Origin: a virus
Virus record (IMG/VR): IMGVR_UViG_3300010399_000032
Direction: 5' to 3' (one strand)
Length of the DNA stretch: 64,000 nt
Position numbers and translations under genes: made by a program. Below, one piece after another: positions 3,048-63,339 of this stretch (the first letter of the stretch is position 1; each line of letters starts with the position of its first letter). A model generated the notes under the pieces. It saw only the letters and a list, made by a program, of their open reading frames with translations, had not been told where the DNA came from and ran no database searches.

Positions 3048-3542
3048 TTATTTGCTCTTGATGGGGGTTGGTGTTTGAGTTATTTGATACTTTTCAAACA
3101 TCCTAGAACCAAACCAAAAGGCAATAATAGTCGAGAATAATGACATGGTTTCAGGATCCCATATTGAAATTAACATAGCCGGCACGGACGACCCTGAAGC
3201 CAACATGGTAAATGCAGCGGCAGTCTTTACGGCAATGAAAAGAAAGAAAAATGCATATGTGATAATAGGTCGAACAGAAGCCCTAAGTGCGTTAATGAAT
3301 ATGCCCCCGTCCAAAGAACTATCATAAGAGTAAAGAGAATTTCTCTCAACTGCCAATGCTTTGACCTGTTCCACTTGTAAATCTGCATTAGCGCTTGCGA
3401 CAGCGGCGTCTTGTTGTAGCTTGGTAAGCTGTAGCTCATACTGTATCTCCTGTTTTCTATCGAAAATCTTCACAATTGAAGGTAAAAGGCTTCCTAGAAT
3501 ACCTAGGAAAGGTGACAAGGCACCGAGTAATATTGCTAACAT
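3048..3542 (-). CDS. Holin, GTA 3-TM family-like
   Basis: LRASVRPIITY...IIAFWFGSR motifs and hydrophobic helices. Confidence 0.75.
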   Translation of the reverse strand: MLAILLGALSPFLGILGSLLPSIVKIFDRKQEIQYELQLTKLQQDAAVASANADLQVEQVKALAVERNSLYSYDSSLDGGIFINALRASVRPIITYAFFFLFIAVKTAAAFTMLASGSSVPAMLISIWDPETMSLFSTIIAFWFGSRMFEKYQITQTPTPIKSK

Positions 3543-4336
3543 TAAGTATTCTCCTTCGATTCTCTAAGTGCCGCGGCTTTCATTTTCTTTAATGGATGAT
3601 ATGAGGCAACCAACTTTGTGTTTCTCTGATCCTCAAATTCTTTACCGGCTCGGATTTTAGCATTCATATATTTTATAAACCTTTGAACGAAAGTCGATTC
3701 AAGACCAGAATATGGATCACCATGTTTGGCTATATAATGTTTCCCGGCATCATCTTCATGTTTTCTTTGTTCATTCCAATCGGAATGGGTTTCATCCGGA
3801 TTGCGTGCATCCATAGGAACAGGTTTTCCATTAAGCCAACCATGGATAGACACCGTTTTTTTATTAGCTAATCGGTTCCAAACTTTTTGACCACCGATAG
3901 TATGGGATGATCCAACTAAAGCTTTAACATGGTTTTTAAGTAGATGGTGGTAAAAATCTTGGGCTTTTACGGGGCTTTGACCGGAACTGGCTAATGTATC
4001 TACCTGCAATACCTTATTATTATCCTTATGCCCCTTAACATGTATATGGATTATATTGGTTTTAGGATCATGTAAATAATAGTGATGAGAATCTGGTGCA
4101 TATACACCATATCTATTTGGTTTACCTTTCAGAACAGAATGATAAACATCTAATCCTTTTAAGGTACTAATTTTTCTGGTGGTCGGATCATGATAATCAT
4201 ATGAATTACGATCCTGATATTCTTGGGCCGATACATCCGGATGTTTTCTCATGCCGGCATCCAAACCAAGTTTATCCTCTTTCCCAATTTGATTCAATAA
4301 ATCTGCTTCGGTCAAAAATTCCTCGAAGGAAAGCAT
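3542..4336 (-). CDS. Putative internal head protein
   Basis: N-terminus MLSFEEFLTE/A resembles the T4 capsid-targeting sequence MKTYQEFIAE. Confidence 0.55.
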   Translation of the reverse strand: MLSFEEFLTEADLLNQIGKEDKLGLDAGMRKHPDVSAQEYQDRNSYDYHDPTTRKISTLKGLDVYHSVLKGKPNRYGVYAPDSHHYYLHDPKTNIIHIHVKGHKDNNKVLQVDTLASSGQSPVKAQDFYHHLLKNHVKALVGSSHTIGGQKVWNRLANKKTVSIHGWLNGKPVPMDARNPDETHSDWNEQRKHEDDAGKHYIAKHGDPYSGLESTFVQRFIKYMNAKIRAGKEFEDQRNTKLVASYHPLKKMKAAALRESKENT

Positions 4337-4339
4337 TTA

Positions 4340-4645
4340 TTACCCCTGTGATGGAGGATCAGATTGTGGTTGATCCTGGTCCATTTTTTTAAGTTTTTCT
4401 TGACCTCTCGTCCATGCTGTCACACCTGTAACTGATCCCATTGTAATATGGAAGAACCCACCTTCTTTAAGTGTCAATGGTTCCCATGGCACATAATTTC
4501 CTTTAGATATTACATAATAAACACCAGTTAGAAGTGGTGCAATGATGAAATCAAAGGCGCAAATACAAAGGTAAACCCAGGCAAATGCAGGTCTCCAATA
4601 ATACTGTAGCCAGGTTTCATCATTCTTATTACGTGATAATTTCAT
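4340..4645 (-). CDS. Holin, GTA 3-TM family-like
   Basis: WRPAFAWVY...FDFIIAP...FHITMG...AWTRGQEK; directly downstream of the endolysin. Confidence 0.75.
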   Translation of the reverse strand: MKLSRNKNDETWLQYYWRPAFAWVYLCICAFDFIIAPLLTGVYYVISKGNYVPWEPLTLKEGGFFHITMGSVTGVTAWTRGQEKLKKMDQDQPQSDPPSQG

Positions 4646-5433
4646 GACGTAAGTTTATCTAATGTTGGAGTATCAATCACACCATTTACGGTGAGGTGAT
4701 TGACTGTCTGGAAGGCTTCAACGGCAGATTTTGTCTTTGGCCCGAAATTTCCATCGGTAACTAAATTACTGTTTGTTTTATTATTTAGACGGGCCTGTAT
4801 CTGTCGGACATACTCGGAAATATTCCCCTCAGATGCATAGATAATTTCTTGTGCTGTACCTTGAGGTGGTGTGGTGATTACCGGTGTATTCCATTGGACA
4901 GGATCATTAGGAACAAATCTTTTGGCCTTATTGGTATAATTAATACGATCTACCAAACCATTGGTACCACCATTAATTCTACGGGTAATGGTATTCACAT
5001 CATCATGATCGGCAAATACGGAGAGACCTTTGGTATTCCAATATTCAAGTGCAGTAAGGACAGAAATCTTAGGATCAGCCGCTAGGGTTGGATTGTTTTC
5101 TAGGTCAACACCTAATTTAGCTCCCATTTGTCGATAATTTGCTCGACCAGTTAGTTGGAAAATACCACGACCTTTATATCGCCTTCCATCACCTGGTTGA
5201 GTGTTTCCTAGATCGGCTCTACCTTCATAAGATGCACCTGAGGCATATTCTTCCAATGTTTTAAATCCGTCGGTTTCCTCCGCGGCCTGCCCAAGGAAAT
5301 GTGATACCCTGAGGTGGTTATTAACCTGGTATTTTACCAAATTTGGATCGAGATATATACTCAAATCTGTAATGATTAAGGAATTAGCCTGTGGGGCAAT
5401 ACCATGTAATATGTCTGTTGTTATAATAGTCAT
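4642..5433 (-). CDS. Endolysin, GH19 chitinase-like with C-terminal peptidoglycan-binding domain
   Basis: HFLGQAAEET, YKGRGIFQLTGRANY, ITRRINGG; C-terminal DGNFGPKT...FQ...GVID. Confidence 0.93.
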   Translation of the reverse strand: MTIITTDILHGIAPQANSLIITDLSIYLDPNLVKYQVNNHLRVSHFLGQAAEETDGFKTLEEYASGASYEGRADLGNTQPGDGRRYKGRGIFQLTGRANYRQMGAKLGVDLENNPTLAADPKISVLTALEYWNTKGLSVFADHDDVNTITRRINGGTNGLVDRINYTNKAKRFVPNDPVQWNTPVITTPPQGTAQEIIYASEGNISEYVRQIQARLNNKTNSNLVTDGNFGPKTKSAVEAFQTVNHLTVNGVIDTPTLDKLTS

Positions 5434-6437
5434 TCTTTATCTCCTTCACTCTCTCCTACTAATTCCGGTAGTTTCCTGCGGAAAATGAGAGGTTTTTTAT
5501 ATACTGGTGGATTTCCATCAATGGCTCCGGCAATATGACCGGAACCTACATTATTTGTCGGCGCAACGGCCCCTGGGACCCCATCTTCCTTCAGAGTAGG
5601 TGGATGAGTCAATTCCGTTGAATTTGGCTTTTTTGGTCGAAGGGCCCAATGTGAACCTTTACGGGTAAAAGTTAACTGATCTTTCATCAAGTCAGAAAGA
5701 TTGGTTGTAATATGCGGGTGTCTTGGTTCCCATGCTTTAATAGGAATATCTGATGCAAAGGTCTTGGTGTGATGTTCACTTGGAGGAGTTTTCTTGGTAC
5801 CACGATCAAACCCGCTTGATGATCCTTGAATAATAGGATCTGTTATAACAGGTGTTGCGTCTCGCCCATGACCTCTTTGCATGACATTTCCACCATGCAA
5901 ATCGAAACGAGTATTTGGATGCGCTTCGGCAATTTCCGAAAGAGCTTTATGGAAATCAGGAAAATGCTTCTTTATTTGATCACCGGCAAATGTGTGGTGT
6001 AATGTATGCAATACATCGGACCCCGTCTTCCGCCTTTGCTTGAATTCAACATCGTGTAATGGATGTGAATCATGAAGAGGTTCCAATCTTTCCATCCTTA
6101 CCACACCAATTCCGGTACCTTTTACTTTACCAATGGCATGAATTTTAGGATAGGTTGGATTTTCTGCTCCCTTGGCTTTGGCCAATTGAGCAAACGAATG
6201 ATATGCAGGATCTTTATAAACCTTATAGACCTGGTCCTTTTGTGGATGATGGATAGCAGACCCCATAACACCGGAACCTAAAACATGAAGGTGATATCCG
6301 CGCTTTTCAGCCTCGGTATCCAATTCAAATCTGGAATCCGCACCACCATAGCGGTGCCCCTCACGCCCAAGGGAAGCCTTGAGGGCATGGATCATAGGAT
6401 GGTTTTGTGATGAATAGATTTCATTAAGTGTTTTCAT
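5430..6437 (-). CDS. Protein kinase-like (T7 gp0.7-like), paralog 3, with C-terminal extension
   Basis: LGSGVMG Gly loop, VYK, MERL, DLHGGNVM catalytic loop, PVITDP. Confidence 0.8.
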   Translation of the reverse strand: MKTLNEIYSSQNHPMIHALKASLGREGHRYGGADSRFELDTEAEKRGYHLHVLGSGVMGSAIHHPQKDQVYKVYKDPAYHSFAQLAKAKGAENPTYPKIHAIGKVKGTGIGVVRMERLEPLHDSHPLHDVEFKQRRKTGSDVLHTLHHTFAGDQIKKHFPDFHKALSEIAEAHPNTRFDLHGGNVMQRGHGRDATPVITDPIIQGSSSGFDRGTKKTPPSEHHTKTFASDIPIKAWEPRHPHITTNLSDLMKDQLTFTRKGSHWALRPKKPNSTELTHPPTLKEDGVPGAVAPTNNVGSGHIAGAIDGNPPVYKKPLIFRRKLPELVGESEGDKE

Positions 6438-7060
6438 GATGCCAATGGATCCGTTATAACTGGAGTTCCATGCCCGCCATGAGTTCCATCAGGCCTGACC
6501 ATAAAATTGCCCTTATGTAAATCGGCCCAACCTTTTGGAAATTTGTGAGCAATATCCGAAAGAGTTCGGTGGAAATTTGGATATGCTTCTTTTAGAGCCT
6601 TTCCGTGTGAGGTATTGTTCAATTCATGTTCTAGTTGTTTACCGTTTGATGCATTAAATTGTGGTGTATGCATTCCCCATTTACCTAAATCAAAGAGATA
6701 TTTATGGATTGGATGGTTTTCTTCTAGAGGCTTCAATCTTTCCATTTTTACCGCTTTGATCTGAGTGCCTTTGATTTTACCGGCCGCATGGATTACTGGA
6801 AGATTAGGATTACCTTTATTTTTCTGTACATGTTTAACAAATCCATGGTACGCTCTATCCTTATAAAGTTTATATACATGATCTTTGTGAGCTATTACTG
6901 CACCAAACACACCGCTTCCAAGAACATGGTCACTAGCATCTTTATCATATAGATGATTAACTATTTCATCACCAGGATCGCGGAATGAATGAATCCTCTT
7001 AGGGAAACTACTAATGACCGGATGAGTACCCTGGCTATAAATTTCTTTGAGGTGTTTCAT
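6434..7060 (-). CDS. Protein kinase-like (T7 gp0.7-like), paralog 2
   Basis: LGSGVFG, VYK, DLHKGNFM, PVITDP. Confidence 0.8.
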   Translation of the reverse strand: MKHLKEIYSQGTHPVISSFPKRIHSFRDPGDEIVNHLYDKDASDHVLGSGVFGAVIAHKDHVYKLYKDRAYHGFVKHVQKNKGNPNLPVIHAAGKIKGTQIKAVKMERLKPLEENHPIHKYLFDLGKWGMHTPQFNASNGKQLEHELNNTSHGKALKEAYPNFHRTLSDIAHKFPKGWADLHKGNFMVRPDGTHGGHGTPVITDPLAS

Positions 7061-7719
7061 CGATTTAATATTCCTACGCTCGGATCCGTTATAACTGGAG
7101 TTCCATGCCCACCATTGCTACCATCCCTTCTGACCATAAAATTGCCATCATGTAGGTCCATCTGATGATCGGATAGATGCCTAGCCATATTTGACATAGA
7201 TTCATGTAAAGATGGAAACTGACTCCTCAATCTCTGCCCGTGTTCCGTTTCATGTAGGTCTCTATAAACATCTGAACCTTTGCCGTGAAATTTAGGAATT
7301 CCATAACTCGTTCTTCCATAATCACTTCCATAATCAAATAATAGGTGTGTCGCAGGATGACTATGATGTAATTCGTGAAGATGTTCCATTTTTACCGCAT
7401 GGAAAACGGTACCTTTAACCTTACCCATGGCATGAATTTTGGGAACGTGTGGATCATCTTGGTGTTGTTTCGCATAGTGAGCATATGCGTGATATCCACC
7501 ATTATCATTTGATTCATGATATATTTTAAAAACATGATTCTTATGACTAAATGCGGCTCCTCCAATACCGGCACCTAGAACATTTAATGCACCGGCTTGA
7601 TTTAACCGATTGGCAATATTATGCCCATGTAACCTAGGTCTTTCCGGATCAATAGGTTCAGCAAATGGTTTGATACCAGGATGTGTACCTGCACTGTATA
7701 TTTCCTTGAGGTGTTTCAT
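7057..7719 (-). CDS. Protein kinase-like (T7 gp0.7-like), paralog 1
   Basis: LGAGIGG, VFK, DLHDGNFM, PVITDP. Confidence 0.8.
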   Translation of the reverse strand: MKHLKEIYSAGTHPGIKPFAEPIDPERPRLHGHNIANRLNQAGALNVLGAGIGGAAFSHKNHVFKIYHESNDNGGYHAYAHYAKQHQDDPHVPKIHAMGKVKGTVFHAVKMEHLHELHHSHPATHLLFDYGSDYGRTSYGIPKFHGKGSDVYRDLHETEHGQRLRSQFPSLHESMSNMARHLSDHQMDLHDGNFMVRRDGSNGGHGTPVITDPSVGILNR

Positions 7720-8105
7720 TACACATCCCTTAATTTTTTACCTACTATTAGATCGACTGTAATATCAGCCGAAAAAATGTCGCGCCCTTTAATCCCTCGC
7801 ACGACCTGAGGCATATATCCCAAAAAAAGGAGAAACGTCTTTAGTATTGGATAGTCTGTTTCATGCAACTTATAAAAAAGCAGCCGGACAGATTGTTCCA
7901 CACCAAAGACGTTTCCCAGTATCACCAAGTGGTTGAGTATCAGGCGTTCTTTTAATTCATTATTAATCTGATACTTTTTGATCAACCTCTTGATATATTT
8001 GATTCGTTTAAGGTCTTCCTCAAACTCAGAGAGAATACAATTTGGCTTATCATATGCTTTCATTGCAGTTAGGAGGAAAGTTTCCTCATTCAAATCAAGT
8101 AACAT
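7719..8105 (-). CDS. Conserved T4-like phage protein of unknown function
   Basis: EFEEDLKRIKYIKRL...LKERLILNH motif, recognised from T4-like myoviruses. Confidence 0.7.
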   Translation of the reverse strand: MLLDLNEETFLLTAMKAYDKPNCILSEFEEDLKRIKYIKRLIKKYQINNELKERLILNHLVILGNVFGVEQSVRLLFYKLHETDYPILKTFLLFLGYMPQVVRGIKGRDIFSADITVDLIVGKKLRDV

Positions 8106-12045: not shown

Positions 12046-14613
12046 TTAGTATTGCGCTAGGCGATGTGCTGTTTCCAGCAACTTCGTAACACCTTTATCA
12101 CCATATTTCTTAACGAAACGATTATATGTATCTTCTTTTAGAGCCCATTCACGAATGGACTTATTTTCTGGAAGCTTTGATTCATACATTTTTGACCAAT
12201 ATGGGAATCCGGAACCAACCAAGGCTGGTGCTTTACCCATATCAAATTCTGGTCCGATACCCACGGAAGCTGCGGCTTCCTTATCATCCGGATCATCAAC
12301 GCCTTCCAGTTTAATTCCCCATTTTCCTTGACCATTTTCCTCCGCAAAAGCCTTAAAAGCTTTGTCGATATTAATAGTTTTCTTATGGAGATGTGCTTGG
12401 ATGACCTTATTAAGTGGATTCCCACGGGCATCTTTCATGACTGTACCAACAGGAGGAGGACCATTGGTCTTTCCTTTAACTTGTTTTGGCACAACAATTT
12501 TTGGTTTAGCAATAGGAGTCTTCGGATTCTTATTGCGGGCATGTTCCATCTTTTCCAACCAGGCATCTGTCATTTCACCAACTTGTTTTGTTGAATGAAT
12601 CTTTCCACCATGATTAAATGAGAGTGAGCCGGATTCTCGGGCAGCCAATTGCGCCTCGGGGAATGATAGTTCGGCTTTAGGTTTTGTTTTGGTATTAGTA
12701 TTCTTATTATTCATTGTTTCTTCCTGAATCATATGTGGTTTCAATACCAGGCGACCATTCTGTGAAATGTGTGTTACTGTATTGATACCATTGATTGTTT
12801 TTCCGTAACGACCAAATCCATAATATGTCAAACCAAGAGCCCGGGCTTGCAACCTCTCGGACTCCGATGCTTTACCGATTGATCGATTGAGTTTTGGAGT
12901 TCTGTATTGTGTAATATGTTGGGTGGCCAATTGGGAATGAACATAATCATTAGCCCTAATTGTAGTAGGAGCCGAAACGAACGTTCGGATCTTCTTGAAA
13001 ACCTTAGAAAATTGATCTTTAATATGATCCTTTTGTTCCGGGGTAGCGGAATGCATATCAATATCATTATTGATAACAGTGAAATTATTTTCACCAAATA
13101 GACCCTGGAGTTCGGTCTTAGCCTTTTGAGCAGCTTCCCATTTACCTTTTCGTATATCCTCCGGTACGGTTCGGCCACCCTTATGACCTCGGTCAATATT
13201 TCTATTCTTGGATACCTCATTGGAAGTATCCACAAATACCATCATGGTTTGATAACCTAGATTTTCCAGTGTTTCCTTGACCTGCTTGATTTTTTGTGGA
13301 TCGTCCGCGGTACCATTGATAACTAAACCGTGACGATTCATTAAGGAAAGCCTTTGTTTTTCCTGAGAAATCATTTTGGCCCGACCACGGACCAAATTTC
13401 GAGCATGGAGTTCATTGGATGGCATTTTCATGTCCAATCCAGTACGTTTCATTAAATATTCAAAAGCAATATCTTGGTTGATTTCTTTTAATCCATGCCC
13501 ATCCAGGGCATTGTGCATGACATAATCTTTACCTGAACCAGGACCACCAGCCAAGAAAACGGCCTTGAAGATGCCGGCGTCATTGATACCTTCTGATAAA
13601 TTCTGTTCCGTGACATATTGAGCATCAAAAACTTGTGGATATTTCTTCCCATAATGACGCATGATCTTACCGGCCTCGGAATTGGCTTCATTTTCAATAT
13701 CCGAACCAGTTGCACCATTGGCTACAATATCATCTAATCGCCCATCTTCATTCTGTTTATGATGGACCAATTCATGCGCAACCGTCCTATAGATATCCAT
13801 TGGGTGCCTATTTTTAGTTACCACATGGATTGTGGCTTCGGATGGGCTATATCCACCAAAAGATGGTTGATCACCTTCATCATCCTTTTTAAGATGAATA
13901 AGAGGTTTTTTCTTAAGTTTAAGTTGATCATGGGCAAAATCGACAAAAGACGCCAGCATTGGCCCAAAACTTTTATGGGTCAATTCAGTCTTATCTACAA
14001 CATTAATGGCTGGTATTGGCTCAACCTTATCTTCTTTTAAATGTTTACATACATCCTTGAAGATTTCCTTTGAAACCTGGAGATTGTTGGTGGGGGTGTA
14101 ATGGGCGAATGACTTAAAATCTCCATTACGGGCAAAGTCTCGCATCTTAGTACCTGAAGCCCCTTCAGCACCTTCAGCATCAGGATCACGATCCCCCGCA
14201 GAAATTACGTGGAATTTATCCAAATCATAGTGTTTTTTTGGATCATACCCGGATTCCGTCTTCTTTTTGATATATTTACCAATCGACCGCTGCATTTCGG
14301 GTACACGGTCTTGCCCGACAACCATAGTTACATGTTTGTAACCTTCGTCGGCCAGTTTACGAACAACATGATGGGGGGAAATAGAATCATCGGAAATGAC
14401 ATTAGCCTCAGGAAATAGCTTCCTAAGGTGATGTATTTTTCGATCATAGGGGAGGGGATTTTTTGCAGAGTCATGGGAATGACTAGCATAGATTCTGGGT
14501 TCAGCCCCAGTTTCTTTAGCAACGGTCGTTACTTTATCGATTAATTTTTTGTGCCCAATCGTGGGAGATTGAAATCTTCCAAAAGTGAAGACGACGTGCT
14601 TATTTTGATCCAT
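12046..14613 (-). CDS. Multidomain protein: cytidylyltransferase-like NTase + HExxH zincin + P-loop kinase
   Basis: FGRFQSPTIGH; AHELVHH...ENEAN; FLAGGPGSGK; domains separated by LKE, LSE and IQE sites. Confidence 0.8.
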   Translation of the reverse strand: MDQNKHVVFTFGRFQSPTIGHKKLIDKVTTVAKETGAEPRIYASHSHDSAKNPLPYDRKIHHLRKLFPEANVISDDSISPHHVVRKLADEGYKHVTMVVGQDRVPEMQRSIGKYIKKKTESGYDPKKHYDLDKFHVISAGDRDPDAEGAEGASGTKMRDFARNGDFKSFAHYTPTNNLQVSKEIFKDVCKHLKEDKVEPIPAINVVDKTELTHKSFGPMLASFVDFAHDQLKLKKKPLIHLKKDDEGDQPSFGGYSPSEATIHVVTKNRHPMDIYRTVAHELVHHKQNEDGRLDDIVANGATGSDIENEANSEAGKIMRHYGKKYPQVFDAQYVTEQNLSEGINDAGIFKAVFLAGGPGSGKDYVMHNALDGHGLKEINQDIAFEYLMKRTGLDMKMPSNELHARNLVRGRAKMISQEKQRLSLMNRHGLVINGTADDPQKIKQVKETLENLGYQTMMVFVDTSNEVSKNRNIDRGHKGGRTVPEDIRKGKWEAAQKAKTELQGLFGENNFTVINNDIDMHSATPEQKDHIKDQFSKVFKKIRTFVSAPTTIRANDYVHSQLATQHITQYRTPKLNRSIGKASESERLQARALGLTYYGFGRYGKTINGINTVTHISQNGRLVLKPHMIQEETMNNKNTNTKTKPKAELSFPEAQLAARESGSLSFNHGGKIHSTKQVGEMTDAWLEKMEHARNKNPKTPIAKPKIVVPKQVKGKTNGPPPVGTVMKDARGNPLNKVIQAHLHKKTINIDKAFKAFAEENGQGKWGIKLEGVDDPDDKEAAASVGIGPEFDMGKAPALVGSGFPYWSKMYESKLPENKSIREWALKEDTYNRFVKKYGDKGVTKLLETAHRLAQY

Positions 14614-14641
14614 TCTTTCCCTCTACAGGAATTATCTGGAC

Positions 14642-15694
14642 CTATTTATACAAACGTGCTTCCTGAGCCTCAAGGAGGGTTTTTTTAAGGGTATTTCGCA
14701 TTTTGGTGCGTTGCTCGGAGTCTTTTAGGGACCTCTTTTGTACCTTTGGATATGAATTGGCGGCCGCCATAAGATCCAAAATGCCAGTATGAACACGAAC
14801 CACAGCTATTTTCTTCTCGGGGGTCGAATTCATATGCCCCAACCAGCGGTGATGCCCATCCAAAATATACCCTTCCCGTGATATGATAGATGGTTTCAGT
14901 TTAGGTTTGGTTCGGATAATTGACCGGATAATCTTATGACTGAATTCTTTCTGGGTCGCCTTTAATGTTTTAGGATCGACCATTTCATGGGAATATTTAA
15001 AACCGTTAGTGGAAAGATGCTTAAGGAAAGAATCGTGATCCGATCCGATCTGGGGCATCATATCTCGCGATATATTAAGAGTTTCATTTGGTATATGAAT
15101 CTTACCTTCGGAAAGAACCTTATAAGGATGGACCTGATCTTCTTTATCGATCCAAAAGCCCTCAAAGGTTATTCGATGATTCATAGGCCCAAGTTTGATC
15201 ATGGCATCCAAGTTCTCCTTGGAGTCATCCCAGATCACAATTCGATCATATTTACCAGTCGTGATATATTTTTTAAGGATTATACTCTTTGATTCAGAAG
15301 TTTTTAGGTGAGCACCTAAATTACCAGCTAATTCAACCTCAACTTTATCGATAGGAAAACCATGATCACGAAAGGTGGAAATAAATTCATGGTGATCATT
15401 AAAATTTGCCCGGGCAGTCAAAAGAATGGTGGTTGATGACTCATGCATATTATGCACAATATCTTTGGCTTGATTTAGAACATGAAGGATAGGAACCGCG
15501 GAAGATCGGAATTGCTTACCTGAACGGAATTCAGAAAAATCAAAACTCTCCCCATCCTCCAAACTGTAATTGTTGAAAGTATGAGGAGGCAATTTTTTGG
15601 AGTCACCATTCGTGTGATTAACAATCACACTAGCGGAGGTATGAAAGAGAGTATCATCAATATCAAAGACGTAAAGTGTTCTAGGGGTTATCAT
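14642..15694 (-). CDS. HAD-family phosphatase fused to a ParB/Srx-like domain
   Basis: FDIDDTL, LTAR, WDDS; C-terminal ILDGHHRW; LSE linker. Confidence 0.8.
   Translation of the reverse strand: MITPRTLYVFDIDDTLFHTSASVIVNHTNGDSKKLPPHTFNNYSLEDGESFDFSEFRSGKQFRSSAVPILHVLNQAKDIVHNMHESSTTILLTARANFNDHHEFISTFRDHGFPIDKVEVELAGNLGAHLKTSESKSIILKKYITTGKYDRIVIWDDSKENLDAMIKLGPMNHRITFEGFWIDKEDQVHPYKVLSEGKIHIPNETLNISRDMMPQIGSDHDSFLKHLSTNGFKYSHEMVDPKTLKATQKEFSHKIIRSIIRTKPKLKPSIISREGYILDGHHRWLGHMNSTPEKKIAVVRVHTGILDLMAAANSYPKVQKRSLKDSEQRTKMRNTLKKTLLEAQEARLYK
14643..14650 (-). promoter_or_regulatory. T4-type late promoter TATAAATA
   Basis: Exact consensus ~30 nt upstream of the 855-aa gene. Confidence 0.75.
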
Positions 15695-15878
15695 TAAATT
15701 TTGATATCAAATAGTGTTTGTAACCATGAAATATCAGAAAAAAGTAAAGCAAATGACCGAGCCGATAATCTGATCGAATGAAGGTAATAGGTGGTTGGGC
15801 TAGACGGATCATCCTGAGACCTACCGTATATTCCCATAGCTAACCAATTTGCTAAGATTTTATTTGAGTCATCTAACA

Positions 15879-17105
15879 TCATTTATCCCATTCCTTTGCG
15901 GCGGTAAAATTCGCGTGGCTGAATTCTAACTGATTAATTAGTTTGACGGCATTCCCTGTTACAGCATGAACCGCAACGAATCCTTCGGGATTTGTTACTC
16001 GGTATCCATCATCCGTTTTGAGGAAATGCCCAATATCTCTAATTTGTTGTAGTTTCTTGACAATCATATTTTTGGCCTTATCAAATAGGTTCTGAAGGTC
16101 AAACATATTTTTGAGATTGTTGATGTTTTTTTGGAAGAAGTTCATAATTATGTTTTTTTCCTTTTCACGTTTTAGTTTGGTATCTTCTTTTTTAGCTTCA
16201 ATAATAGCTTGATTGAGTTTATGATTGAGATTGATCAAAAAATCCCTGGCATGAGCAATGGTATCAGAAATCGCTGATCCTTCCCGGACCTTGGAATTAT
16301 TCCATGTCAAAATTTCTGTACTGTAAACAGAATTTCCAGCTACTTGATTCAAGAAACTGGGAGAAATTTCTTTCCATATACCCTTGGCCTTGTCGATCAA
16401 ATCATCAATATTCTTTCTCTCGGCATCAGTTAAAGTTGCGGCCCCGGATACATCAGTATAAGAAGCATCCCGAAACCAAACATCCTTAGTATGGTTCAGG
16501 GCCCCAATATCTACTCCGAATTTTGCTTTAGAATCTGCCAACGTAGCTCCATTATAAGATGTATGCCAGACGACCCCCATACGTGAGGTGGAAATTTGGT
16601 GCTCCAAGGTCGTCCCTTTAGGTACGGCATAGACAATTGTATTGGGTTGGAATGTAACGTAATCATTTCCATCAATCTTAGAGGTTTTAAGGTCATCATG
16701 AGTGAACATCATATCTCCCTGCAAGATACCTTTAATTCCTAATTCAGGAAGGTATTGCAGAGCTATTTTAAGTTTATTTGCCAAGCCAGGTGATCCTGGG
16801 TAATTCCTATCTATATCGGAAGGAGTATAGTTCAATTTTGCATTTTGTGCAAATATTCCTTTAGTTCCAACGAAAAACTTCTTGTTATCAGGGTTGATAC
16901 CTGCAAATATAGCAGGTGCTCCATCCCATTTTACTGTAACATCAATAGGGATTTTACTCGTTCCTACTGATAGCATATCAGTTAAAGATGTAAGGAATTC
17001 AATAGCTTCCTTCGTTCCTTCCATACCACCAAGGACGACCTTGTCCTGTAGATGTGTAAGGTGGAGATTTTTACCTTCGGCGGCTTCTAATAGAAAATGA
17101 TCCAT
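15879..17105 (-). CDS. Conserved T4-like protein with RNA-ligase-like nucleotidyltransferase motif (DUF6267-like)
   Basis: TVKWDGAP (KxDG), QGD, PEGFV; N-terminus MDHFLLE/A. Confidence 0.65.
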   Translation of the reverse strand: MDHFLLEAAEGKNLHLTHLQDKVVLGGMEGTKEAIEFLTSLTDMLSVGTSKIPIDVTVKWDGAPAIFAGINPDNKKFFVGTKGIFAQNAKLNYTPSDIDRNYPGSPGLANKLKIALQYLPELGIKGILQGDMMFTHDDLKTSKIDGNDYVTFQPNTIVYAVPKGTTLEHQISTSRMGVVWHTSYNGATLADSKAKFGVDIGALNHTKDVWFRDASYTDVSGAATLTDAERKNIDDLIDKAKGIWKEISPSFLNQVAGNSVYSTEILTWNNSKVREGSAISDTIAHARDFLINLNHKLNQAIIEAKKEDTKLKREKEKNIIMNFFQKNINNLKNMFDLQNLFDKAKNMIVKKLQQIRDIGHFLKTDDGYRVTNPEGFVAVHAVTGNAVKLINQLEFSHANFTAAKEWDK

Positions 17106-17106
17106 G

Positions 17107-18036
17107 TTATTCGATCCATTGTGTGACTGCACGCGAATCTCGGGGCTGGATAGCAAAACGGGCCCCCGCTACCCCAAACTGGGACCGGTCGCCCTTATAC
17201 ATACACATAAAGACTGGGGTATATCCACCAGACATTCTATCACCATTTTCATGTGAGTGATTAGCTTTAAATTCAAAGGAATTTCCGTATTTGGTTACCT
17301 TAACAGGTCCTTGGAGTACAACCGAGACATTATTCAATCCAAAGGGAGATGATTTGGAATAATCCACTCCATAAATTGCCATAGCTTGTAGATTGAATGA
17401 TGTAATTTCCTTTGCGACAGTGGTTGCCCTTGGGATTCCTTCCGGAAACATATCTTGCATCTGTTGGATAAAATCTTGAGATTCTGGATGGCTGGCAATC
17501 GCAGGATCAGTCATACCACCCCATTGTTGGAAATCTCGTGGGGTTGAACCTTCTTTATGTGATAACCAGATGATTTCATTACCATTTTTATCGAGGATGG
17601 AGAAATCTGATTTGGGAACACCAAAAGTTTTTATACAAGAAACGGCTTGATATTTAAAGTTTTTGACCTTAATGGGAATATAACCAAGCCCGGTCTTAGA
17701 TCGAATCTCATCAAATTGCTTATTGATTGAGTTTATCTCTCGGGTTTCAATGCCAACACCCGCACCTCCACCATCCGGTTTACCACCAAATTCAACAGTT
17801 TTCTTGAATGAAGATAGTTTATAGGTGCGGGTTTTAACTCGGGCATCAATAAATTCGAGTTTCTGATACTCCGAATTCTTTCTCCTCATCAGGACAACTA
17901 AATTTTCCTTTTCGATGAGTAGCTTAACCGATTGACCTGAATTAAGTTCGAATGGTTCACCTGCTTCATACTTTTCTATGAACTTATCAACTCGCCAGTC
18001 ATATTTTAATAATTCGGAAGGAGATAAGCTGGCCAT
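17107..18036 (-). CDS. Putative PD-(D/E)xK-fold nuclease-like protein
   Basis: PKSDF...LSHK...FQQWGG pattern. Confidence 0.45.
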   Translation of the reverse strand: MASLSPSELLKYDWRVDKFIEKYEAGEPFELNSGQSVKLLIEKENLVVLMRRKNSEYQKLEFIDARVKTRTYKLSSFKKTVEFGGKPDGGGAGVGIETREINSINKQFDEIRSKTGLGYIPIKVKNFKYQAVSCIKTFGVPKSDFSILDKNGNEIIWLSHKEGSTPRDFQQWGGMTDPAIASHPESQDFIQQMQDMFPEGIPRATTVAKEITSFNLQAMAIYGVDYSKSSPFGLNNVSVVLQGPVKVTKYGNSFEFKANHSHENGDRMSGGYTPVFMCMYKGDRSQFGVAGARFAIQPRDSRAVTQWIE

Positions 18037-37494: not shown

Positions 37495-37572
37495 TGGTGA
37501 CCCATGGGGGATTCGAACCCCCGCACGACGGTTTTAGAGACCGCTGGTATAACCAACACTACCAGATGGGTC
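37495..37572 (-). tRNA. Amber-suppressor tRNA (anticodon CTA)
   Basis: Complete cloverleaf GACCCAT/ATGGGTC, GCGGT-CTCTAAA-ACCGT, A73, CCA. Confidence 0.88.
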
Positions 37573-58197: not shown

Positions 58198-58273
58198 TGG
58201 AGCGGGAGAGGCTAGTTCGAATAACCATCTTCCCAGGGGGTACCTGGGCGCTCTACCTTTAAGCTATCCCCGC
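58198..58273 (-). tRNA. Atypical Gly-body tRNA, anticodon ACC (possible pseudogene)
   Basis: GCGGG acceptor, U73-CCA, loop GT-ACC-CC, one bulge in the acceptor. Confidence 0.6.
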
Positions 58274-58705
58274 AATGTAATTCATTACTTTTAGTATAAG
58301 AATTGGGCCAATCGAGTCTTGATTTAATCCTACTGTTATTCTGAATGGATCTAATATTCTACCGTAAGCATATCCTGTTAATATACATTTTGACCATATA
58401 TCAGAATCTAGCCGGGTGATTATATGTTTGACAGATTTCATAGCGTAGTAAGTTTTTTCTGAAATTGACTTTCATATTTAGCTAATTCAGGATGCAACTT
58501 TACTAATTCATGAAAGGCTGAATCTAGTTTACCCATTCGCATATATGTTTCAAACCAGGAAAAATTCGAGACAAAATCAGTCTCACCTCGGGCCAACAAT
58601 TCTTCCTTCAATTCCTTGGTAGAAAAATCGGTGATATCCTTATCATCATATTCATCATTATAATATGTAGCACCCATGACCTATTCCTTTAATTATTATA
58701 TTATA

Positions 58706-59731
58706 TCAGATATTTTTAGTGTTTACAATCATTCCTTCTGTATTTTCCGTAGTAATAGTTTGCAAATAATCAAGACATTCAAAAATGCTATGCTTAAGGG
58801 GGGTTGAAGCCACCCAATTCAACTTATTCTTTGCCTTATCCACATTAGGAATTCTCACCTGTACATCATTAGGAAATCTTCGAATTGTCGTAAATTCAAG
58901 TTCATGACCACCTTCCAGCATTCCCATATCCGTAGCAGTCTCATATATGAGGTTAGCCAATTGTTTCATGGTAACCTGCTCAGTATTTCCTAAATTGAAT
59001 GTTTCATTCAGAGTTGCATCCGTAAATGAATGATCAGCAATTGCAGTAGCCACATCATTAATCCAGGTAAAACACCTAATCTGTGAACCATCACCAATAA
59101 TAGGCAAAGGATTCAACTTGTTAATGGCTATATTTTGAATGAAATCAGCAAAAACGTGGGAAGTACCTTGTTCTCTTTCACGAGGCTCATAAGGAGTAAT
59201 AATATTGAATGGGCGCCAGATGGTATAATTAACACCATATTGATCTAGGAAGGCTTGAGATAATCTTTCACCCACAAGCTTAGATAGGCCATAATCTGTT
59301 TTAGGAATGGCAATGTTTACCGTATCCAATTCCTTTACCCCGGGAACTTGTAATGTTTCATACACCATAGAGGATGAAACATACACTACTCGGTCGACCG
59401 TATAATCGGAAGAAGCTTTTAATATATTATTATGGAGAGTTACATCTTCACCTAAAATATCGGCCTTATACTTATTAAATCCACCTATACCATATATGCG
59501 AGCCGCGGCATTAATCACGGCGTCTGGGCGGGCCTGATCAAATACATCATCCACAACCAAAGGATCAGCTAAATCTCCACGTAGGAATTTATAATTCCAA
59601 GGAATCAAATGCCGTCTTTGCCCATATCTTTGAAGATTATCAACTCCAAAAATTTCATGCCCATTGGCAATAAGTTTAGGAATAACGGCCTGCATAAGGC
59701 TACCTTCTGATCCGGCTACCAAAATTCTCAT
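58706..59731 (-). CDS. NAD-dependent NDP-sugar epimerase/dehydratase (UDP-GlcA decarboxylase-like)
   Basis: Rossmann GSEGSL, SSSMVY, YGLSK, RPFN, GDGSQIRCFT. Confidence 0.9.
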   Translation of the reverse strand: MRILVAGSEGSLMQAVIPKLIANGHEIFGVDNLQRYGQRRHLIPWNYKFLRGDLADPLVVDDVFDQARPDAVINAAARIYGIGGFNKYKADILGEDVTLHNNILKASSDYTVDRVVYVSSSMVYETLQVPGVKELDTVNIAIPKTDYGLSKLVGERLSQAFLDQYGVNYTIWRPFNIITPYEPREREQGTSHVFADFIQNIAINKLNPLPIIGDGSQIRCFTWINDVATAIADHSFTDATLNETFNLGNTEQVTMKQLANLIYETATDMGMLEGGHELEFTTIRRFPNDVQVRIPNVDKAKNKLNWVASTPLKHSIFECLDYLQTITTENTEGMIVNTKNI

Positions 59732-59732
59732 A

Positions 59733-61037
59733 TTATTCTCCTTGCATTGCCAATCTTACATTATTTGAAAATTTTATATCTTCAAATATCCAATCATTAA
59801 CTCGATAGATGCCATTGATCTTGTTTTTGCTAATATTCATTTTCTTCCAAACATCCACAATGATCGTATCACCCATTACCGAATTGGCATTATTTTCCAA
59901 CCAATCTTCGAAAATATCATGTGGTGTCATGACAACTACCGCATCAAATTTTCCTTGAGGCATCACATTATGTACATATTTATGGTTCACCAATGGATCA
60001 TAGAGTTGTACATTCACACCATGCTTAATACAAACCTTACGGAATTTAAAAGCCAGGCTATTCCGCGTATCATCATTATTAGCCTTGAAGGCCGCTCCTA
60101 GTACTAGGATATTATTAACTGATTTATCCTGAGTTTTGATGAGATTGTAAATGTAATCCGGCATACCTTCATTGATTTCAAAGGAAGCCCTGATCATGTC
60201 CACATATGGAACATCATCTAAAAGAAACTTTCCATCCTTGTATAAGCAAGGACCACCCACATTAGCACCAGGAAGAGGTAAAGCCATGCGAGAATAATGG
60301 TTATTTGACGCTTTGATAACCTTTTCAACATCTATACCTTTCTTTTGGCCAATCATATAGAATTCATTGGCCAAGGCAAATGTTACATAACGATACATAT
60401 TTGTAATCAATTTACCAAATTCGGCTTCCTCAGGAGTCAATTTAATGCATGAGGTAATACCTCTGAAAAATTCTACAGCCTTATCAAAACTCACATCACC
60501 AAATACACCCACCAATTGTGGATGCTCCATGGCTTCATTAATACTTCTTCCTTGTACTACACGTTCCGGAGCAAAGACCAGATAGTAATCTTTTCCTTCA
60601 ACCAATCGAGTAGCCTTTTCAATTCGATCCTTTAACAATTTGGTTGTACCAGGTGAAACGGTCGATCTAAGGAGAACAAGGGTACCTAGATGTGTTTCCA
60701 GATAAGATGTAAGTTGATCAATGACCTTAATGATACCTGTAAGATTAGGATTTCCTTCCTCATCTACAGGAGTTCCAATCATTATTGCAATTGCATTTGG
60801 GCTAAAAGCCCTAACATCTTCAAAATTTGAGGTGAATTGGAGAGTATGTAGGTTAAAGCATTCTTTAAGATATATTTCACCATTTTCTTCAATAAAGGGG
60901 ATCTTTCCTTCCTTTATTGAATTGATCGCGGGTTCATTGATATCATATCCAATAACCTGGTGTGCTCGGCTTAAGCTGCATACAATAGCAAACGGTAATC
61001 CAACATGCCCGGCTGCACCAATAACTGCTACCTTCAT
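59733..61037 (-). CDS. UDP-glucose/GDP-mannose dehydrogenase family
   Basis: GAAGHVGLP, RSTVSPGTT, PER, AEFGKL..N, GGPCL.KD, FKANNDDTRNS. Confidence 0.93.
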   Translation of the reverse strand: MKVAVIGAAGHVGLPFAIVCSLSRAHQVIGYDINEPAINSIKEGKIPFIEENGEIYLKECFNLHTLQFTSNFEDVRAFSPNAIAIMIGTPVDEEGNPNLTGIIKVIDQLTSYLETHLGTLVLLRSTVSPGTTKLLKDRIEKATRLVEGKDYYLVFAPERVVQGRSINEAMEHPQLVGVFGDVSFDKAVEFFRGITSCIKLTPEEAEFGKLITNMYRYVTFALANEFYMIGQKKGIDVEKVIKASNNHYSRMALPLPGANVGGPCLYKDGKFLLDDVPYVDMIRASFEINEGMPDYIYNLIKTQDKSVNNILVLGAAFKANNDDTRNSLAFKFRKVCIKHGVNVQLYDPLVNHKYVHNVMPQGKFDAVVVMTPHDIFEDWLENNANSVMGDTIIVDVWKKMNISKNKINGIYRVNDWIFEDIKFSNNVRLAMQGE

Positions 61038-62346: not shown

Positions 62347-62952
62347 TCATCGATAAAATCTCAAATCAATTTCGGAAAAGTTTTCGTGAGTATAAACCAC
62401 ATCAACATGGAAACCATTATTTGCCAAGAAATATCGGGCTTCCATATGATTATTTTGAGCACCTTCATATAATGGAATGTCCAAAGTACATTCAAGTTGC
62501 CCAGCTTTAACTCTTTCTATCGCCGAATGTAATGATTTTAGCACATTCAAATCCGATCCTTGAGCATCAATATGCAAATAATCTATATCTCCAACAGGAT
62601 AGTACAAATTCAAGAAACTGTCAAGTCTAATACACGGAACCGTTTCAACCCATGCAGGAGGAGTAGTGAATTCCTTGGCTTTTCCGATAACCGAGTTCTG
62701 TAAATCATGATGGAAATCATAAAGACTTCCAACACCTAGATCACCTACACTCGAAACATTGAAACTCTTAAATCCATTCTCAATATCCACAGCGAATGTG
62801 AAAATATGAATGTTCTTATTTCCTCGGAATTTTTCCTTAAGTAAGGGATAAAGCAGGGGGGATGGTTCAAAGGCAAAAATCTCCGAACCATCCTCGGCCA
62901 ATTTTATTGTCGTTGATCCTGTGTTTGCACCAACATCAAATTTAACAGTCAT
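62347..62952 (-). CDS. FkbM-family methyltransferase
   Basis: FDVGANTG, AFEP, RLD, HIDAQGSD..VLKS. Confidence 0.88.
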   Translation of the reverse strand: MTVKFDVGANTGSTTIKLAEDGSEIFAFEPSPLLYPLLKEKFRGNKNIHIFTFAVDIENGFKSFNVSSVGDLGVGSLYDFHHDLQNSVIGKAKEFTTPPAWVETVPCIRLDSFLNLYYPVGDIDYLHIDAQGSDLNVLKSLHSAIERVKAGQLECTLDIPLYEGAQNNHMEARYFLANNGFHVDVVYTHENFSEIDLRFYR

Positions 62953-63339
62953 ATGTAGTATCAGCAATAGCAACTTCTAAATGGCGTCTAATATCTACCA
63001 TCTGATCGCCCAAAATATGAAACGCTTGAACTTGAGACAAACCTAACACACTTATATCAACATGTCGCATCATTACTTCATTAAAATCGAACATATCAGG
63101 CTCAGTCTCAGGATCACTTAAAATCCAAGCCAAAAATATCTGGGAAGATTTGGAAAGTTTAGATTTTACTTGACTGACCAATTTTTTCTCCTATTCCTCG
63201 TTTTATATCATCAAATCGCCCATTAGCATTTATAGCTGTAATAAATAGCGATATTTTCACATTTTCGGCTTGTATGTTAGTTTCAAATGGTTTCGAGACG
63301 TTGATATCTAAATTTTTAATCAATTCATATAATGGTAAC

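What the first reader, a model, noticed from the sequence alone, without database searches (positions are those of the whole stretch)
5430..7719. Tandem triplet of T7 gp0.7-like protein kinases with capsid-targeting-like N-termini
Seen: three coupled paralogs with Gly loop, VxK, DLHxGN and PVITDP motifs. Two share a 29-nt identical block (near 6447-6475 and 7082-7110). All begin MKxLxE-IYS, are His-rich and lie among late head-associated genes. Established: T7 gp0.7 kinase has LGxG...DMHSGNIM...PYITDP; T4 internal proteins carry an N-terminal targeting peptide cleaved after L/I-x-E by the gp21 protease. Inference: these are virion-packaged kinases injected with the DNA to phosphorylate host defence or transcription proteins before phage gene expression, diversified by duplication.
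Basis: partly seen in the sequence, partly recalled or inferred. Interest (0 to 1): 0.75.

Follow-up and report, generated by a model that had tools for sequence, protein, structure and literature searches.

The report
Head-tagged T7-type kinase trio
An uncultured T4-like phage carries three neighbouring copies of the stripped-down protein kinase that phage T7 uses to disarm bacterial defences, and each copy starts with a short tag like the one T4 uses to load proteins into its head, so they are probably injected ready-made with the DNA, though no experiment shows this.

Summary
Three translationally coupled minus-strand genes (7057-7719, 6434-7060, 5430-6437) are paralogs at 39-46% identity. 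All keep the Gly loop, VxK lysine, DLHxGN and VITDP motifs, the MKxLxEIYS start, 8-12% His and the 29-nt identical block.

They belong to the T7 gp0.7 (T7K) kinase family. Support comes from PHROG 15752 (E 1e-10 to 1e-13), hhalign to T7 gp0.7 (97.8%), and a confident fold matching Hanks kinases and T7-like phage kinases.

The claim "among late head-associated genes" is not supported. The neighbours are an endolysin, DUF7207, tRNAs and replication genes. That layout does mirror T4's ipII/ipIII-e-tRNA-ipI region.

The capsid-tag reading is plausible but unproven:
- The leader resembles T4 Alt (MELITE|L).
- About 85% of the 150 best family representatives start M-x-[LIVM]-x-E.
- Multi-kinase polyproteins carry [LI]-x-E at every domain junction.
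- Every leader-bearing contig complete enough to judge has a gp21-type protease.
- A cultured Rhizobium phage puts one T4-like leader on a kinase and at least five unrelated ORFs.

A near-identical metagenome contig holds a fourth paralog, so copy number varies. This scan has noted tagged T7-type kinases before in at least eight other genomes. I found no publication describing them.

The parts
7057..7719 (-). K3, 220-aa minimal T7K-family kinase (leader MKHLKE|IYS; ends 7 residues after VITDP)
   Evidence: ORF. PHROG 15752 E 9e-13. Catalytic residues aligned.
6434..7060 (-). K2, 208-aa minimal T7K-family kinase. G-loop 6902-6919, Lys64 6869-6871, DLHKGN 6506-6523, Asp204-Pro205 6446-6451.
   Evidence: PHROG 15752 E 7e-13. 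hhalign to T7 gp0.7 97.8%. AF2 pLDDT 90.5. Foldseek PDB and BFVD hits.
5823..6437 (-). K1 kinase domain (residues 1-205; leader MKTLNE|IYS)
   Evidence: PHROG 15752 E 6.5e-10 over residues 7-202. Alignments A1 and A3.
5430..5822 (-). K1 C-terminal tail (130 aa, basic, pI 9.4). It carries the motif LKE|D...APTNNVGSGHIAG...FRRK, shared with the closest relatives. Function unknown.
   Evidence: No homologue of the tail as a whole. No Pfam or PHROG match.
7702..7719 (-). K3 leader codons MKHLKE (candidate capsid-targeting / gp21-type L-x-E site)
   Evidence: Compared with T4 Alt MELITE|L and IPI MKTFKEF.
7043..7060 (-). K2 leader codons MKHLKE
6420..6437 (-). K1 leader codons MKTLNE
6447..6475 (.). 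29-nt block identical to 7082-7110 (encodes GHGTPVITDP of K2)
7082..7110 (.). 29-nt block identical to 6447-6475 (same peptide in K3)
3542..4336 (-). 264-aa basic (pI 9.2), His-rich (7.2%) protein of unknown fold. It starts MLSFEEFLTE|A, a T4 IP-type leader. Candidate further packaged protein of the same cassette.
   Evidence: T4 IPII/IPIII start MKTYQEFIAE|A. No family match. The Atlas shows only viral hypothetical clusters.
4642..5433 (-). GH19-type endolysin with PG_binding_1, coupled to K1 by an ATGA overlap (context)
7719..8105 (-). DUF7207 / phrog_407 gene directly upstream, stop overlapping the K3 start (context)
14643..14650 (-). The only intergenic T4-type late-promoter match (TATAAATA) upstream of the kinases. 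It lies 30 nt before the 855-aa gene and heads a gap-free leftward gene string that reaches the kinases 7 kb downstream.
   Evidence: The count is not enriched over shuffles, so this is weak evidence.

Best explanation
The three genes encode catalytically intact, minimal Ser/Thr/Tyr-type protein kinases of the phage T7 gp0.7 (T7K) family. Each has an N-lobe, a catalytic loop and a DP (DFG-like) motif, and the chain ends right after that motif.

The proposed mechanism has five steps, all inferred:
1. The genes are made late, as part of a long, tightly coupled leftward gene string that also holds the endolysin.
2. The six-residue leader MK(T/H)L(N/K)E, with hydrophobic residues at positions 4 and 7 as in the T4 capsid-targeting sequence, takes them into the scaffolding core of the prohead.
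3. The phage's gp21-type protease cuts after L-x-E6, leaving basic, His-rich mature kinases that start with IYS.
4. They leave the head with the DNA.
5. With host ATP they phosphorylate host proteins broadly, including nucleic-acid-binding defence proteins, before any phage gene is expressed, as T7K does after its early synthesis.

The array is evolving by duplication, loss and local gene conversion. There are two sister pairs (K2/K3, and K1 with the extra paralog of contig L039), and copy number differs between near-identical phages.

Shown here: family membership, intact catalytic motifs, the fold, the leader and its family-wide distribution, and copy-number variation.
Inferred: timing, packaging, cleavage, injection and substrates.
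For: Kinase identity:
- PHROG 15752 at E 6.5e-10 to 6.7e-13 for all three.
- hhalign of the 103-sequence family alignment against T7 gp0.7 gives 97.8% probability, E 1.3e-12. It aligns the G-loop, VIKV, DMHSGNIM and ITDP motifs.
- The AF2 model has pLDDT 90.5 and pTM 0.87.
- Foldseek PDB hits are Hanks-type kinases such as ASK1, S6K1, CK1 and PknB, at probability 1.0.
- BFVD top hits are T7-like phage protein kinases at E 3e-10 to 1e-7, TM up to 0.64.
- G48, G50, K64, E107, D180, N185, D204 and P205 are invariant or nearly so across the family and present in K1-K3.
- T7K is an experimentally shown hyperpromiscuous kinase that disarms Retron-Eco9 and DarTG1 (PMC13645617).

Leader and packaging:
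- T4 IPII/IPIII start MKTYQEFIAE|A, IPI starts MKTFKEF..., and Alt starts MELITE|L.
- gp21 cuts after L/I-x-E. Targeting depends on CTS residues 4 and 7. Propeptides can be as short as about 7 residues (PMC9026906).
- About 85% of the 150 best family representatives begin M-x-[LIVM]-x-E, and E6 is at least 90% conserved.
- Leaders vary (MKINE, MLSFKQFIAE-G, MRIHELLTETTVDE), but 35 of 36 conserved LxGYKxxP blocks are directly preceded by [LIV]-x-E. This includes 17 internal junctions of proteins with 2-6 kinase domains.
- S77 (gp21-type) proteases are present in every leader-bearing record complete enough to judge (G004, G010, G011, Rhizobium phage). Leaderless homologues sit in two complete S77-negative records and in T7.
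- Cultured Rhizobium phage RHph_I1_18 puts the same IP-type leader on a kinase and at least five unrelated ORFs, among them MAKTYKEFIAE|A.
- In this window, ORF 3542-4336 starts MLSFEEFLTE|A.
- The kinases are basic, pI 8.1-9.6, as T4 internal proteins are (PMC9026906).
- The gene order (tRNA array, kinases, endolysin, another leader-bearing ORF) mirrors T4's tRNA-e-ipIII-ipII and ipI.
- The phage is T4-like by its family-B polymerase (47% identity to cyanomyoviruses) and UvsX.

Array dynamics.
Against: - No virion proteomics, transcript timing or activity data exist for this phage or any close relative.
- The gp21-type protease of this genome could not be checked. It is not in the window and the look-up tool for the 151.8-kb contig was closed.
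- Conservation runs past the proposed cut site (E-IYSxxxHPxI here, E-LTGYKxxPxY elsewhere) and recurs at every repeat of the polyproteins. The [LI]-x-E could therefore be an integral part of the domain rather than a signal.
- The leader lacks the IPIII-type site at residues 8-10.
- The only late-promoter match lies 7 kb upstream, and TATAAATA is not enriched in the window.
- Pseudomonas phage Milchi has an S77 protease but leaderless kinases, so family members are not always tagged.
- The sample for the protease correlation is small.
Confidence: 0.5

Rival explanations
1. They are ordinary, non-packaged intracellular kinases that act during infection like T7K. The conserved M-x-L-x-E start would be a structural or regulatory N-terminal element of the kinase domain, for example one that docks on the N-lobe, and not a targeting or cleavage signal.
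For: - The conserved block extends beyond the E and is repeated at each domain start of multi-kinase proteins, as a fold element would be.
- The genes lie outside any head module.
- There is no nearby late promoter.
- T7K and the Milchi homologues work, or are annotated, without any leader.
Against: - Residues 1-28 are the least confident part of the model, pLDDT 65-70 against above 90 for the core.
- Leaders of different length and sequence all end in [LIV]-x-E.
- The same leaders occur on unrelated proteins in a cultured carrier phage and on ORF 3542-4336 here.
- Leaderless homologues occur where no S77 protease exists.
- Coupling to the endolysin suggests late rather than early synthesis, which is odd for a take-over kinase.
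Confidence: 0.33
2. They are kinases that act on the phage's own late processes, for example lysis timing or head assembly. Under this reading they are co-expressed with the endolysin and holin-like genes for that reason.
For: Direct ATGA coupling of K1 to the endolysin, and membrane-protein genes just downstream.
Against: - No precedent was found in the searched literature.
- In relatives the kinases sit in other contexts.
- It does not explain the family-wide leader or the polyprotein junctions.
- T4's ip genes also flank the endolysin gene e without a lysis role.
Confidence: 0.07
3. They are small-molecule kinases of the APH or choline-kinase type, not protein kinases.
For: - APH(2'')-Ia appears among the Foldseek PDB hits at ranks 23 and 49.
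- The C-lobe that binds protein substrates in Hanks kinases is missing.
Against: - The best sequence and structure matches are T7K-family phage protein kinases.
- T7K, which has the same truncated architecture, is a proven protein kinase (PMC13645617).
- The APH hits have rmsd about 15 A and 9-10% identity.
- Pfam gave no family at all for any of the three kinases, so no APH match.
Confidence: 0.05

Closest known systems
Phage T7 gp0.7 protein kinase (T7K; PHROG 15752/2828; listed in the protein database as PF27024)
   Same: - Homologous kinase core with G-loop, VxK, D-x-H-x-G-N-x-M and ITDP motifs.
- The core ends at the DP (DFG-like) motif without a classical C-lobe.
- The family is found almost only in phages.
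- A likely promiscuous host-directed kinase with an anti-defence role.
   Different: - No C-terminal shut-off / DNA-binding domain.
- DP is followed by L, S or I instead of V.
- Sits in a T4-like myovirus rather than a podovirus.
- Three (elsewhere four) tandem copies.
- Not in an early-gene position.
- Carries an L-x-E leader that T7K lacks.
- The 2026 survey found 222 homologues, none described as tagged or as coming from T4-like phages.
T4 capsid-targeted internal proteins: Alt, IPI, IPII, IPIII (CTS removed by gp21)
   Same: - Short N-terminal leader with M-K at the start, hydrophobic residues at positions 4 and 7, and a Glu-terminated L/I-x-E site.
- The Alt propeptide MELITE|L has the same length and form.
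- Basic proteins.
- Genes next to the endolysin and tRNA cluster.
- Polymorphic, duplicated loci.
- Alt is likewise a host-modifying enzyme.
   Different: - The cargo is a kinase, not an ADP-ribosyltransferase or a restriction inhibitor.
- There is no IPIII-type site at residues 8-10.
- Packaging and cleavage are not demonstrated.
- The protease gene of this genome has not been seen.
Kinase domains of phage 'polyvalent proteins' (Iyer et al. 2017, PMC5512222)
   Same: - Truncated protein-kinase domains lacking the C-terminal subdomain.
- Predicted to be delivered with the virion to modify host proteins.
- Multi-domain forms exist.
   Different: - A different kinase clade, described with a His-to-Asp insert and a conserved Gln, mainly in Verrucomicrobia-Chlamydia and Bacteroidetes (pro)phages.
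- There the kinase is fused to unrelated effector domains rather than tagged by a CTS. Here the forms are stand-alone genes or kinase-only repeats.

Membership tests
T7 gp0.7 (T7K) kinase family | [quoted passage not shown] | tested here: met
   PHROG 15752 at E 6.5e-10, 6.7e-13 and 9.2e-13. hhalign to T7 gp0.7 residues 56-217 gives 97.8% probability, E 1.3e-12.
T7 gp0.7 (T7K) kinase family | Catalytic residues: Gly-rich loop, beta3 Lys, catalytic-loop Asp/Asn (D-x-H-x-x-N), Mg-binding Asp | tested here: met
   G48, G50, K64, D180, H182, N185 and D204 are present in all three paralogs.
T7 gp0.7 (T7K) kinase family | DPV motif in place of DFG (PMC13645617) | tested here: inconclusive
   D-P is kept, but V is replaced by L (K2), S (K3) or I (K1). 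The paper states that the Val is less conserved outside Autographiviridae.
T7 gp0.7 (T7K) kinase family | Protein-kinase-like fold truncated after the DFG-like motif | tested here: met
   AF2 pLDDT 90.5. Foldseek PDB Hanks kinases at probability 1.0. BFVD T7-like phage kinases at E down to 2.8e-10.
T7 gp0.7 (T7K) kinase family | C-terminal shut-off (SO) DNA-binding domain | tested here: not met
   K2 and K3 end 3-7 residues after DP. The K1 tail has no PHROG or Pfam match and no homologue. The paper notes that jumbophage and prophage homologues also lack SO.
T7 gp0.7 (T7K) kinase family | Ser/Thr/Tyr protein-kinase activity | not testable with these tools
   Needs an enzyme assay or phosphoproteomics.
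T4-type capsid-targeted (CTS) internal proteins | N-terminal leader resembling MKT(Y/F)xEF, with hydrophobic residues at positions 4 and 7 | tested here: met
   MKHLKEI and MKTLNEI compared with T4 IPI MKTFKEF and IPII/III MKTYQEF. The role of residues 4 and 7 comes from PMC9026906.
T4-type capsid-targeted (CTS) internal proteins | gp21-type L/I-x-E cleavage site closing the leader | tested here: met
   L4-x-E6 is present in all three, as in T4 Alt MELITE|L. The rule comes from PMC9026906. Whether the site is used is unknown.
T4-type capsid-targeted (CTS) internal proteins | Same genome encodes a gp21/S77 prohead protease | not testable with these tools
The phage is T4-like by polymerase and UvsX. 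Leader-bearing relatives have S77.
T4-type capsid-targeted (CTS) internal proteins | Late expression | tested here: inconclusive
   A single TATAAATA lies 7 kb upstream, heading an uninterrupted gene string. The motif is not enriched.
T4-type capsid-targeted (CTS) internal proteins | Leader is portable: shared by unrelated proteins of the same phage | tested here: inconclusive
   In this window only ORF 3542-4336 has a related IP-type leader, and it is not the same one. The feature is clearly met in cultured Rhizobium phage RHph_I1_18.
T4-type capsid-targeted (CTS) internal proteins | Presence of the processed protein in virions and ejection into the host | not testable with these tools
   Needs virion proteomics.

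The most novel reading that the evidence does not exclude
T4-like phages in general carry pre-loaded 'kinase cocktails'. A very large and so far undescribed branch of the T7K family (3,815 cluster representatives at E<=1e-3) would be routed into proheads by short Glu-terminated leaders. It is encoded either as tandem genes or as polyproteins of up to six kinases, which the prohead protease would cut at [LI]-x-E junctions. The kinases would be injected with the DNA to phosphorylate host defences before any transcription. Copy number and sequence would turn over rapidly in an arms race.
Probability: 0.45. Interest if true: 0.8.

Novelty: new variant of a known kind. Interest (0 to 1): 0.62.

Why it matters
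T7K was recently shown to disarm several bacterial defence systems by mass phosphorylation, but it must first be transcribed and translated. A kinase delivered ready-made with the DNA would act at time zero. It would be the kinase counterpart of T4's packaged Alt and IPI.

The family found here is more than ten times larger than the published T7K survey, and it sits mostly in uncultured T4-like and jumbo phages.

It makes concrete, cheap predictions:
- neo-N-termini in virion proteomes;
- reporter loading by the leader;
- phosphorylation in translation-blocked infections.

A cultured carrier (Rhizobium phage RHph_I1_18) is available in which to test them. It also suggests short natural tags for loading enzymes into T4-type capsids.

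Tried and rejected
- Nucleotide (blastn) and tblastn searches of the trio and of K2 against 50,697 phage records found nothing.
- The local Pfam and NCBIfam copies gave no family for the kinases.
- A PDB sequence search gave only a chance hit.
The 151,780-bp contig could therefore not be read, and its gp21 and head genes could not be checked.
- The window's contig is not in IMG/VR. The best relatives there are 25-33% identical.
- The K1 tail searched alone found only itself.
- The C-terminal modules of relatives, and the leader-bearing neighbour of the Rhizobium phage kinase, have no Pfam or PHROG function. My guess that the latter is an ADP-ribosyltransferase was not supported.
- The Atlas search of ORF 3542-4336 gave only viral hypothetical clusters.
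- Rejected: TAG recoding despite a CUA-anticodon tRNA. Reading TAG as sense does not merge genes more than other stops do.
- Rejected: sigma-70-like promoters or terminators bounding the trio. None exceeds the shuffled expectation.
- Literature searches for packaged or tagged phage kinases returned only T7K, polyvalent-protein and T4 head reviews.
Full report
**What is there**

On the minus strand, three ORFs of 220 aa (K3, 7057-7719), 208 aa (K2, 6434-7060) and 335 aa (K1, 5430-6437) follow one another. Their start and stop codons overlap (TAATG, ATGA, ATGA). K1 in turn overlaps the start of the next gene.
- They are paralogs. K2 vs K3 gives E 4e-41 at 43% identity, and alignment A1 shows 39-45% identity.
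- All begin MK(H/T)L(K/N)EIYS.
- All carry VLGxGxxG, V(Y/F)K, DLHxGNxMxR and VITDP.
- The 29-nt identical block at 6447-6475 / 7082-7110 is confirmed, within 73 nt of 85% identity. It encodes GHGTPVITDP. K2 and K3 are identical at all third positions there, while K1 uses other synonymous codons. Local gene conversion, or recent common descent of that segment, is the simplest reading.
- K2 and K3 also share a 9-codon insertion that K1 lacks.
- His content is 8-12% against about 3% for the window. All three proteins are basic, pI 8.1-9.6.

**What they are**

The local Pfam and NCBIfam copies are silent. Other evidence places all three in the T7 gp0.7 (T7K) family:
- PHROG 15752, the T7 gp0.7-type kinase family, matches all three at E 6.5e-10 to 6.7e-13.
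- A profile of five sequences scored against 1.84 billion cluster representatives found 3,815 relatives at E<=1e-3 and 809 at E<=1e-10.
- A 103-sequence alignment (A2) has G48, G50, K64, E107, D180, N185, D204 and P205 invariant or nearly so.
- hhalign of A2 against T7 gp0.7 gives 97.8% probability, E 1.3e-12. It aligns MLGNGHFS, VIKV, DMHSGNIM and YITDP to the corresponding motifs.
- The AlphaFold model of K2 is confident (pLDDT 90.5, pTM 0.87). Only residues 1-28 are lower, at 65-70.
- Foldseek finds Hanks-type protein kinases in the PDB at probability 1.0. TM is only about 0.35-0.41, probably because the C-lobe is missing from the model.
- In BFVD the top named hits are the protein kinases of T7-like phages, with E down to 2.8e-10 and TM up to 0.64.
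- The chain ends 3-7 residues after the DP motif in K2 and K3.

They are therefore minimal kinases like the T7K kinase domain, without T7K's shut-off/DNA-binding domain. T7K itself is an experimentally characterised, hyperpromiscuous dual-specificity kinase that weakens Retron-Eco9 and DarTG1. Its published homologue survey lists 222 proteins, mostly Autographiviridae plus a few from jumbophages and prophages, and does not mention packaging (PMC13645617).

**Context**

- Downstream lie a GH19 endolysin with a PG-binding domain, small membrane proteins and a 264-aa unknown ORF.
- Upstream lie DUF7207, three unannotated proteins and a cytidylyltransferase/P-loop protein.
- Further on are 33 tRNA genes, primase, ThyX, DnaB, UvsX and a family-B polymerase.
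- The polymerase is 47% identical to those of T4-like cyanomyoviruses, so the phage belongs to the T4 superfamily.
- No S77 protease lies in the window.

This layout does parallel T4. There, ipII and ipIII sit beside the endolysin gene e, followed by the tRNA cluster and ipI. The only intergenic TATAAATA upstream is at 14643-14650, heading a gap-free gene string that reaches the kinases. The motif is not enriched, so timing stays open.

**The leader**

Read from the T4 record, IPII and IPIII start MKTYQEFIAE|A, IPI starts MKTFKEFTS..., and Alt starts MELITE|LFD. The T4 head review states three things (PMC9026906):
- gp21 cuts after L/I-x-E.
- CTS residues 4 and 7 carry the targeting.
- Propeptides range from about 7 to 65 residues.

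The kinases' MK(T/H)L(N/K)E|I has M-K at positions 1-2, Leu at 4, Glu at 6 and Ile at 7. That makes it an Alt-length leader with IPI-like spacing.

Across the family the pattern is striking:
- About 85% of the 150 best representatives start M-x-[LIVM]-x-E, and E6 is at least 90% conserved.
- Some relatives carry long T4-like leaders instead: MLSFKQFIAE-G, MKSYSQIIQE-L, MRSYQQYLEE-L.
- In 36 non-redundant occurrences of the conserved LxGYKxxP block that opens the domain in one large subgroup, the preceding three residues are [LIV]-x-E in 35. Nineteen of these are at protein N-termini behind leaders of different length. Seventeen are at internal junctions of proteins with two to six kinase domains.

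This is what a protease-processed propeptide or polyprotein would look like. It is also compatible with the motif being part of the domain, and that is the main rival.

**Tests between the two readings**

(a) gp21-type proteases (PF03420) are present in every leader-bearing record complete enough to judge. These are G004, G010, G011 and the Rhizobium phage.
- G011's start, MRFFEF, has Phe rather than Leu/Ile at P3, so it fits less cleanly.
- G001 also has the protease, but the start of its kinase is unclear.
- Two complete records without the protease carry leaderless homologues, and T7 gp0.7 also lacks the leader.
- Pseudomonas phage Milchi has the protease but leaderless kinases.

(b) In cultured Rhizobium phage RHph_I1_18, a T7K-type kinase starts (M)KSFSEHIAE|S. 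The same leader type heads at least five unrelated ORFs scattered over the genome, one of them MAKTYKEFIAE|A. Only about 11 of 1,035 ORFs fit either leader pattern.

(c) In this window, ORF 3542-4336 starts MLSFEEFLTE|A. It is basic and His-rich like the kinases and lies in the same gene string.

(d) The leader region is the least confidently modelled part of K2.

Together these favour a portable targeting/cleavage signal. The samples are small, and nothing shows packaging.

**Array dynamics**

A 1,443-bp JGI metagenome contig (L039) is 98-99% identical to the window over K2 and the start of K1. Between them it holds a fourth, intact 199-aa paralog that starts MKTLNEIYGS and ends VITDPFSD. K1 groups with this extra copy by its leader and its short loop, and K2 groups with K3. 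Tandem kinases also occur in IMG/VR relatives (two or three copies), in Milchi and in the Rhizobium phage.

**K1 tail**

Residues 206-335 are basic and low in complexity. They share with the closest relatives a motif [LMI]-x-E|[DE]...PTNNVGSGxIAG...RRKK. In some relatives this continues into a small KFAGxEVFEV domain that K1 lacks. No family or function could be assigned. The motif is again preceded by a gp21-type site, which recalls Alt's C-terminal processing. This is speculation.

**Verdict**

The kinase assignment is solid. The packaged-and-injected reading is the best-supported mechanism, at about 0.5, and is not demonstrated.

Earlier notes of this scan describe the same theme in at least eight other genomes. 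They also place T4-type tail/baseplate genes, and a leader-bearing ADP-ribosyltransferase next to the portal, in this same genome. I treated these as leads only. I found no publication describing CTS-tagged T7K homologues. The nearest precedents are T7K, T4 Alt and the IPs, and the predicted virion-delivered kinase domains of polyvalent proteins (PMC5512222).

Noticed in passing
window 19168-46640 and 58202-58274 (- strand): There are 33 tRNA genes, all on the coding strand and covering most amino acids. One at 37495-37572 has anticodon CUA (an amber suppressor, which ARAGORN labels 'Pyl'). Reading TAG as sense does not merge ORFs more than other stops do, so no general recoding is apparent in this window.
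   Followed up: partly
window 3542-4336 (- strand): A 264-aa basic (pI 9.2), His-rich (7.2%) protein of unknown family starts MLSFEEFLTE|A, almost the T4 IPII/III capsid-targeting sequence. It sits between membrane-protein genes of the lysis region. It is a candidate further packaged protein.
   Followed up: partly
window 12046-17156 (- strand): Large multi-domain enzymes are preceded by TATAAATA at 14643. An 855-aa protein combines a cytidylyltransferase and a P-loop/PNK-like ATPase. A 350-aa protein is PNK-like. A phrog_455 protein has an ATG-start form beginning MDHFLLE|A. Together they look like an RNA/tRNA-repair-like module next to the tRNA array.
   Followed up: no
window 5430-5822 (K1 tail) and proteins P0005, P0006, P0007, P0009, P0017, P0020: A recurrent C-terminal motif [LMI]-x-E-[DE]...PTNNVGSGxIAG...RRKK(FAGxEVFEV) follows the kinase domain in the closest relatives. 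It has no family assignment and no known function.
   Followed up: partly
L003/L004 9164-12913 (IMG/VR contigs): A single 1,249-aa ORF consists of six consecutive T7K-type kinase domains. Each is introduced by [IL]-x-E-L-[IT]-G-Y-K. Other representatives have 2-5 domains in up to 1,343 aa.
   Followed up: partly
L039 173-772 (JGI contig Ga0134125_10441361): A contig otherwise 98-99% identical to the window has a fourth intact kinase paralog between K2 and K1. The array is therefore copy-number polymorphic.
   Followed up: yes
window 58706-61037 (- strand): Nucleotide-sugar epimerase and UDP-glucose dehydrogenase homologues lie near the polymerase, with a methyltransferase at 62347-62973. They may relate to DNA or surface-sugar modification.
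   Followed up: no
window 5430-7719 and 3542-4336: His content is unusually high (7-12%) in all three kinases and in the leader-bearing ORF264, against 1-2% in neighbouring genes. There is no explanation for this.
   Followed up: no
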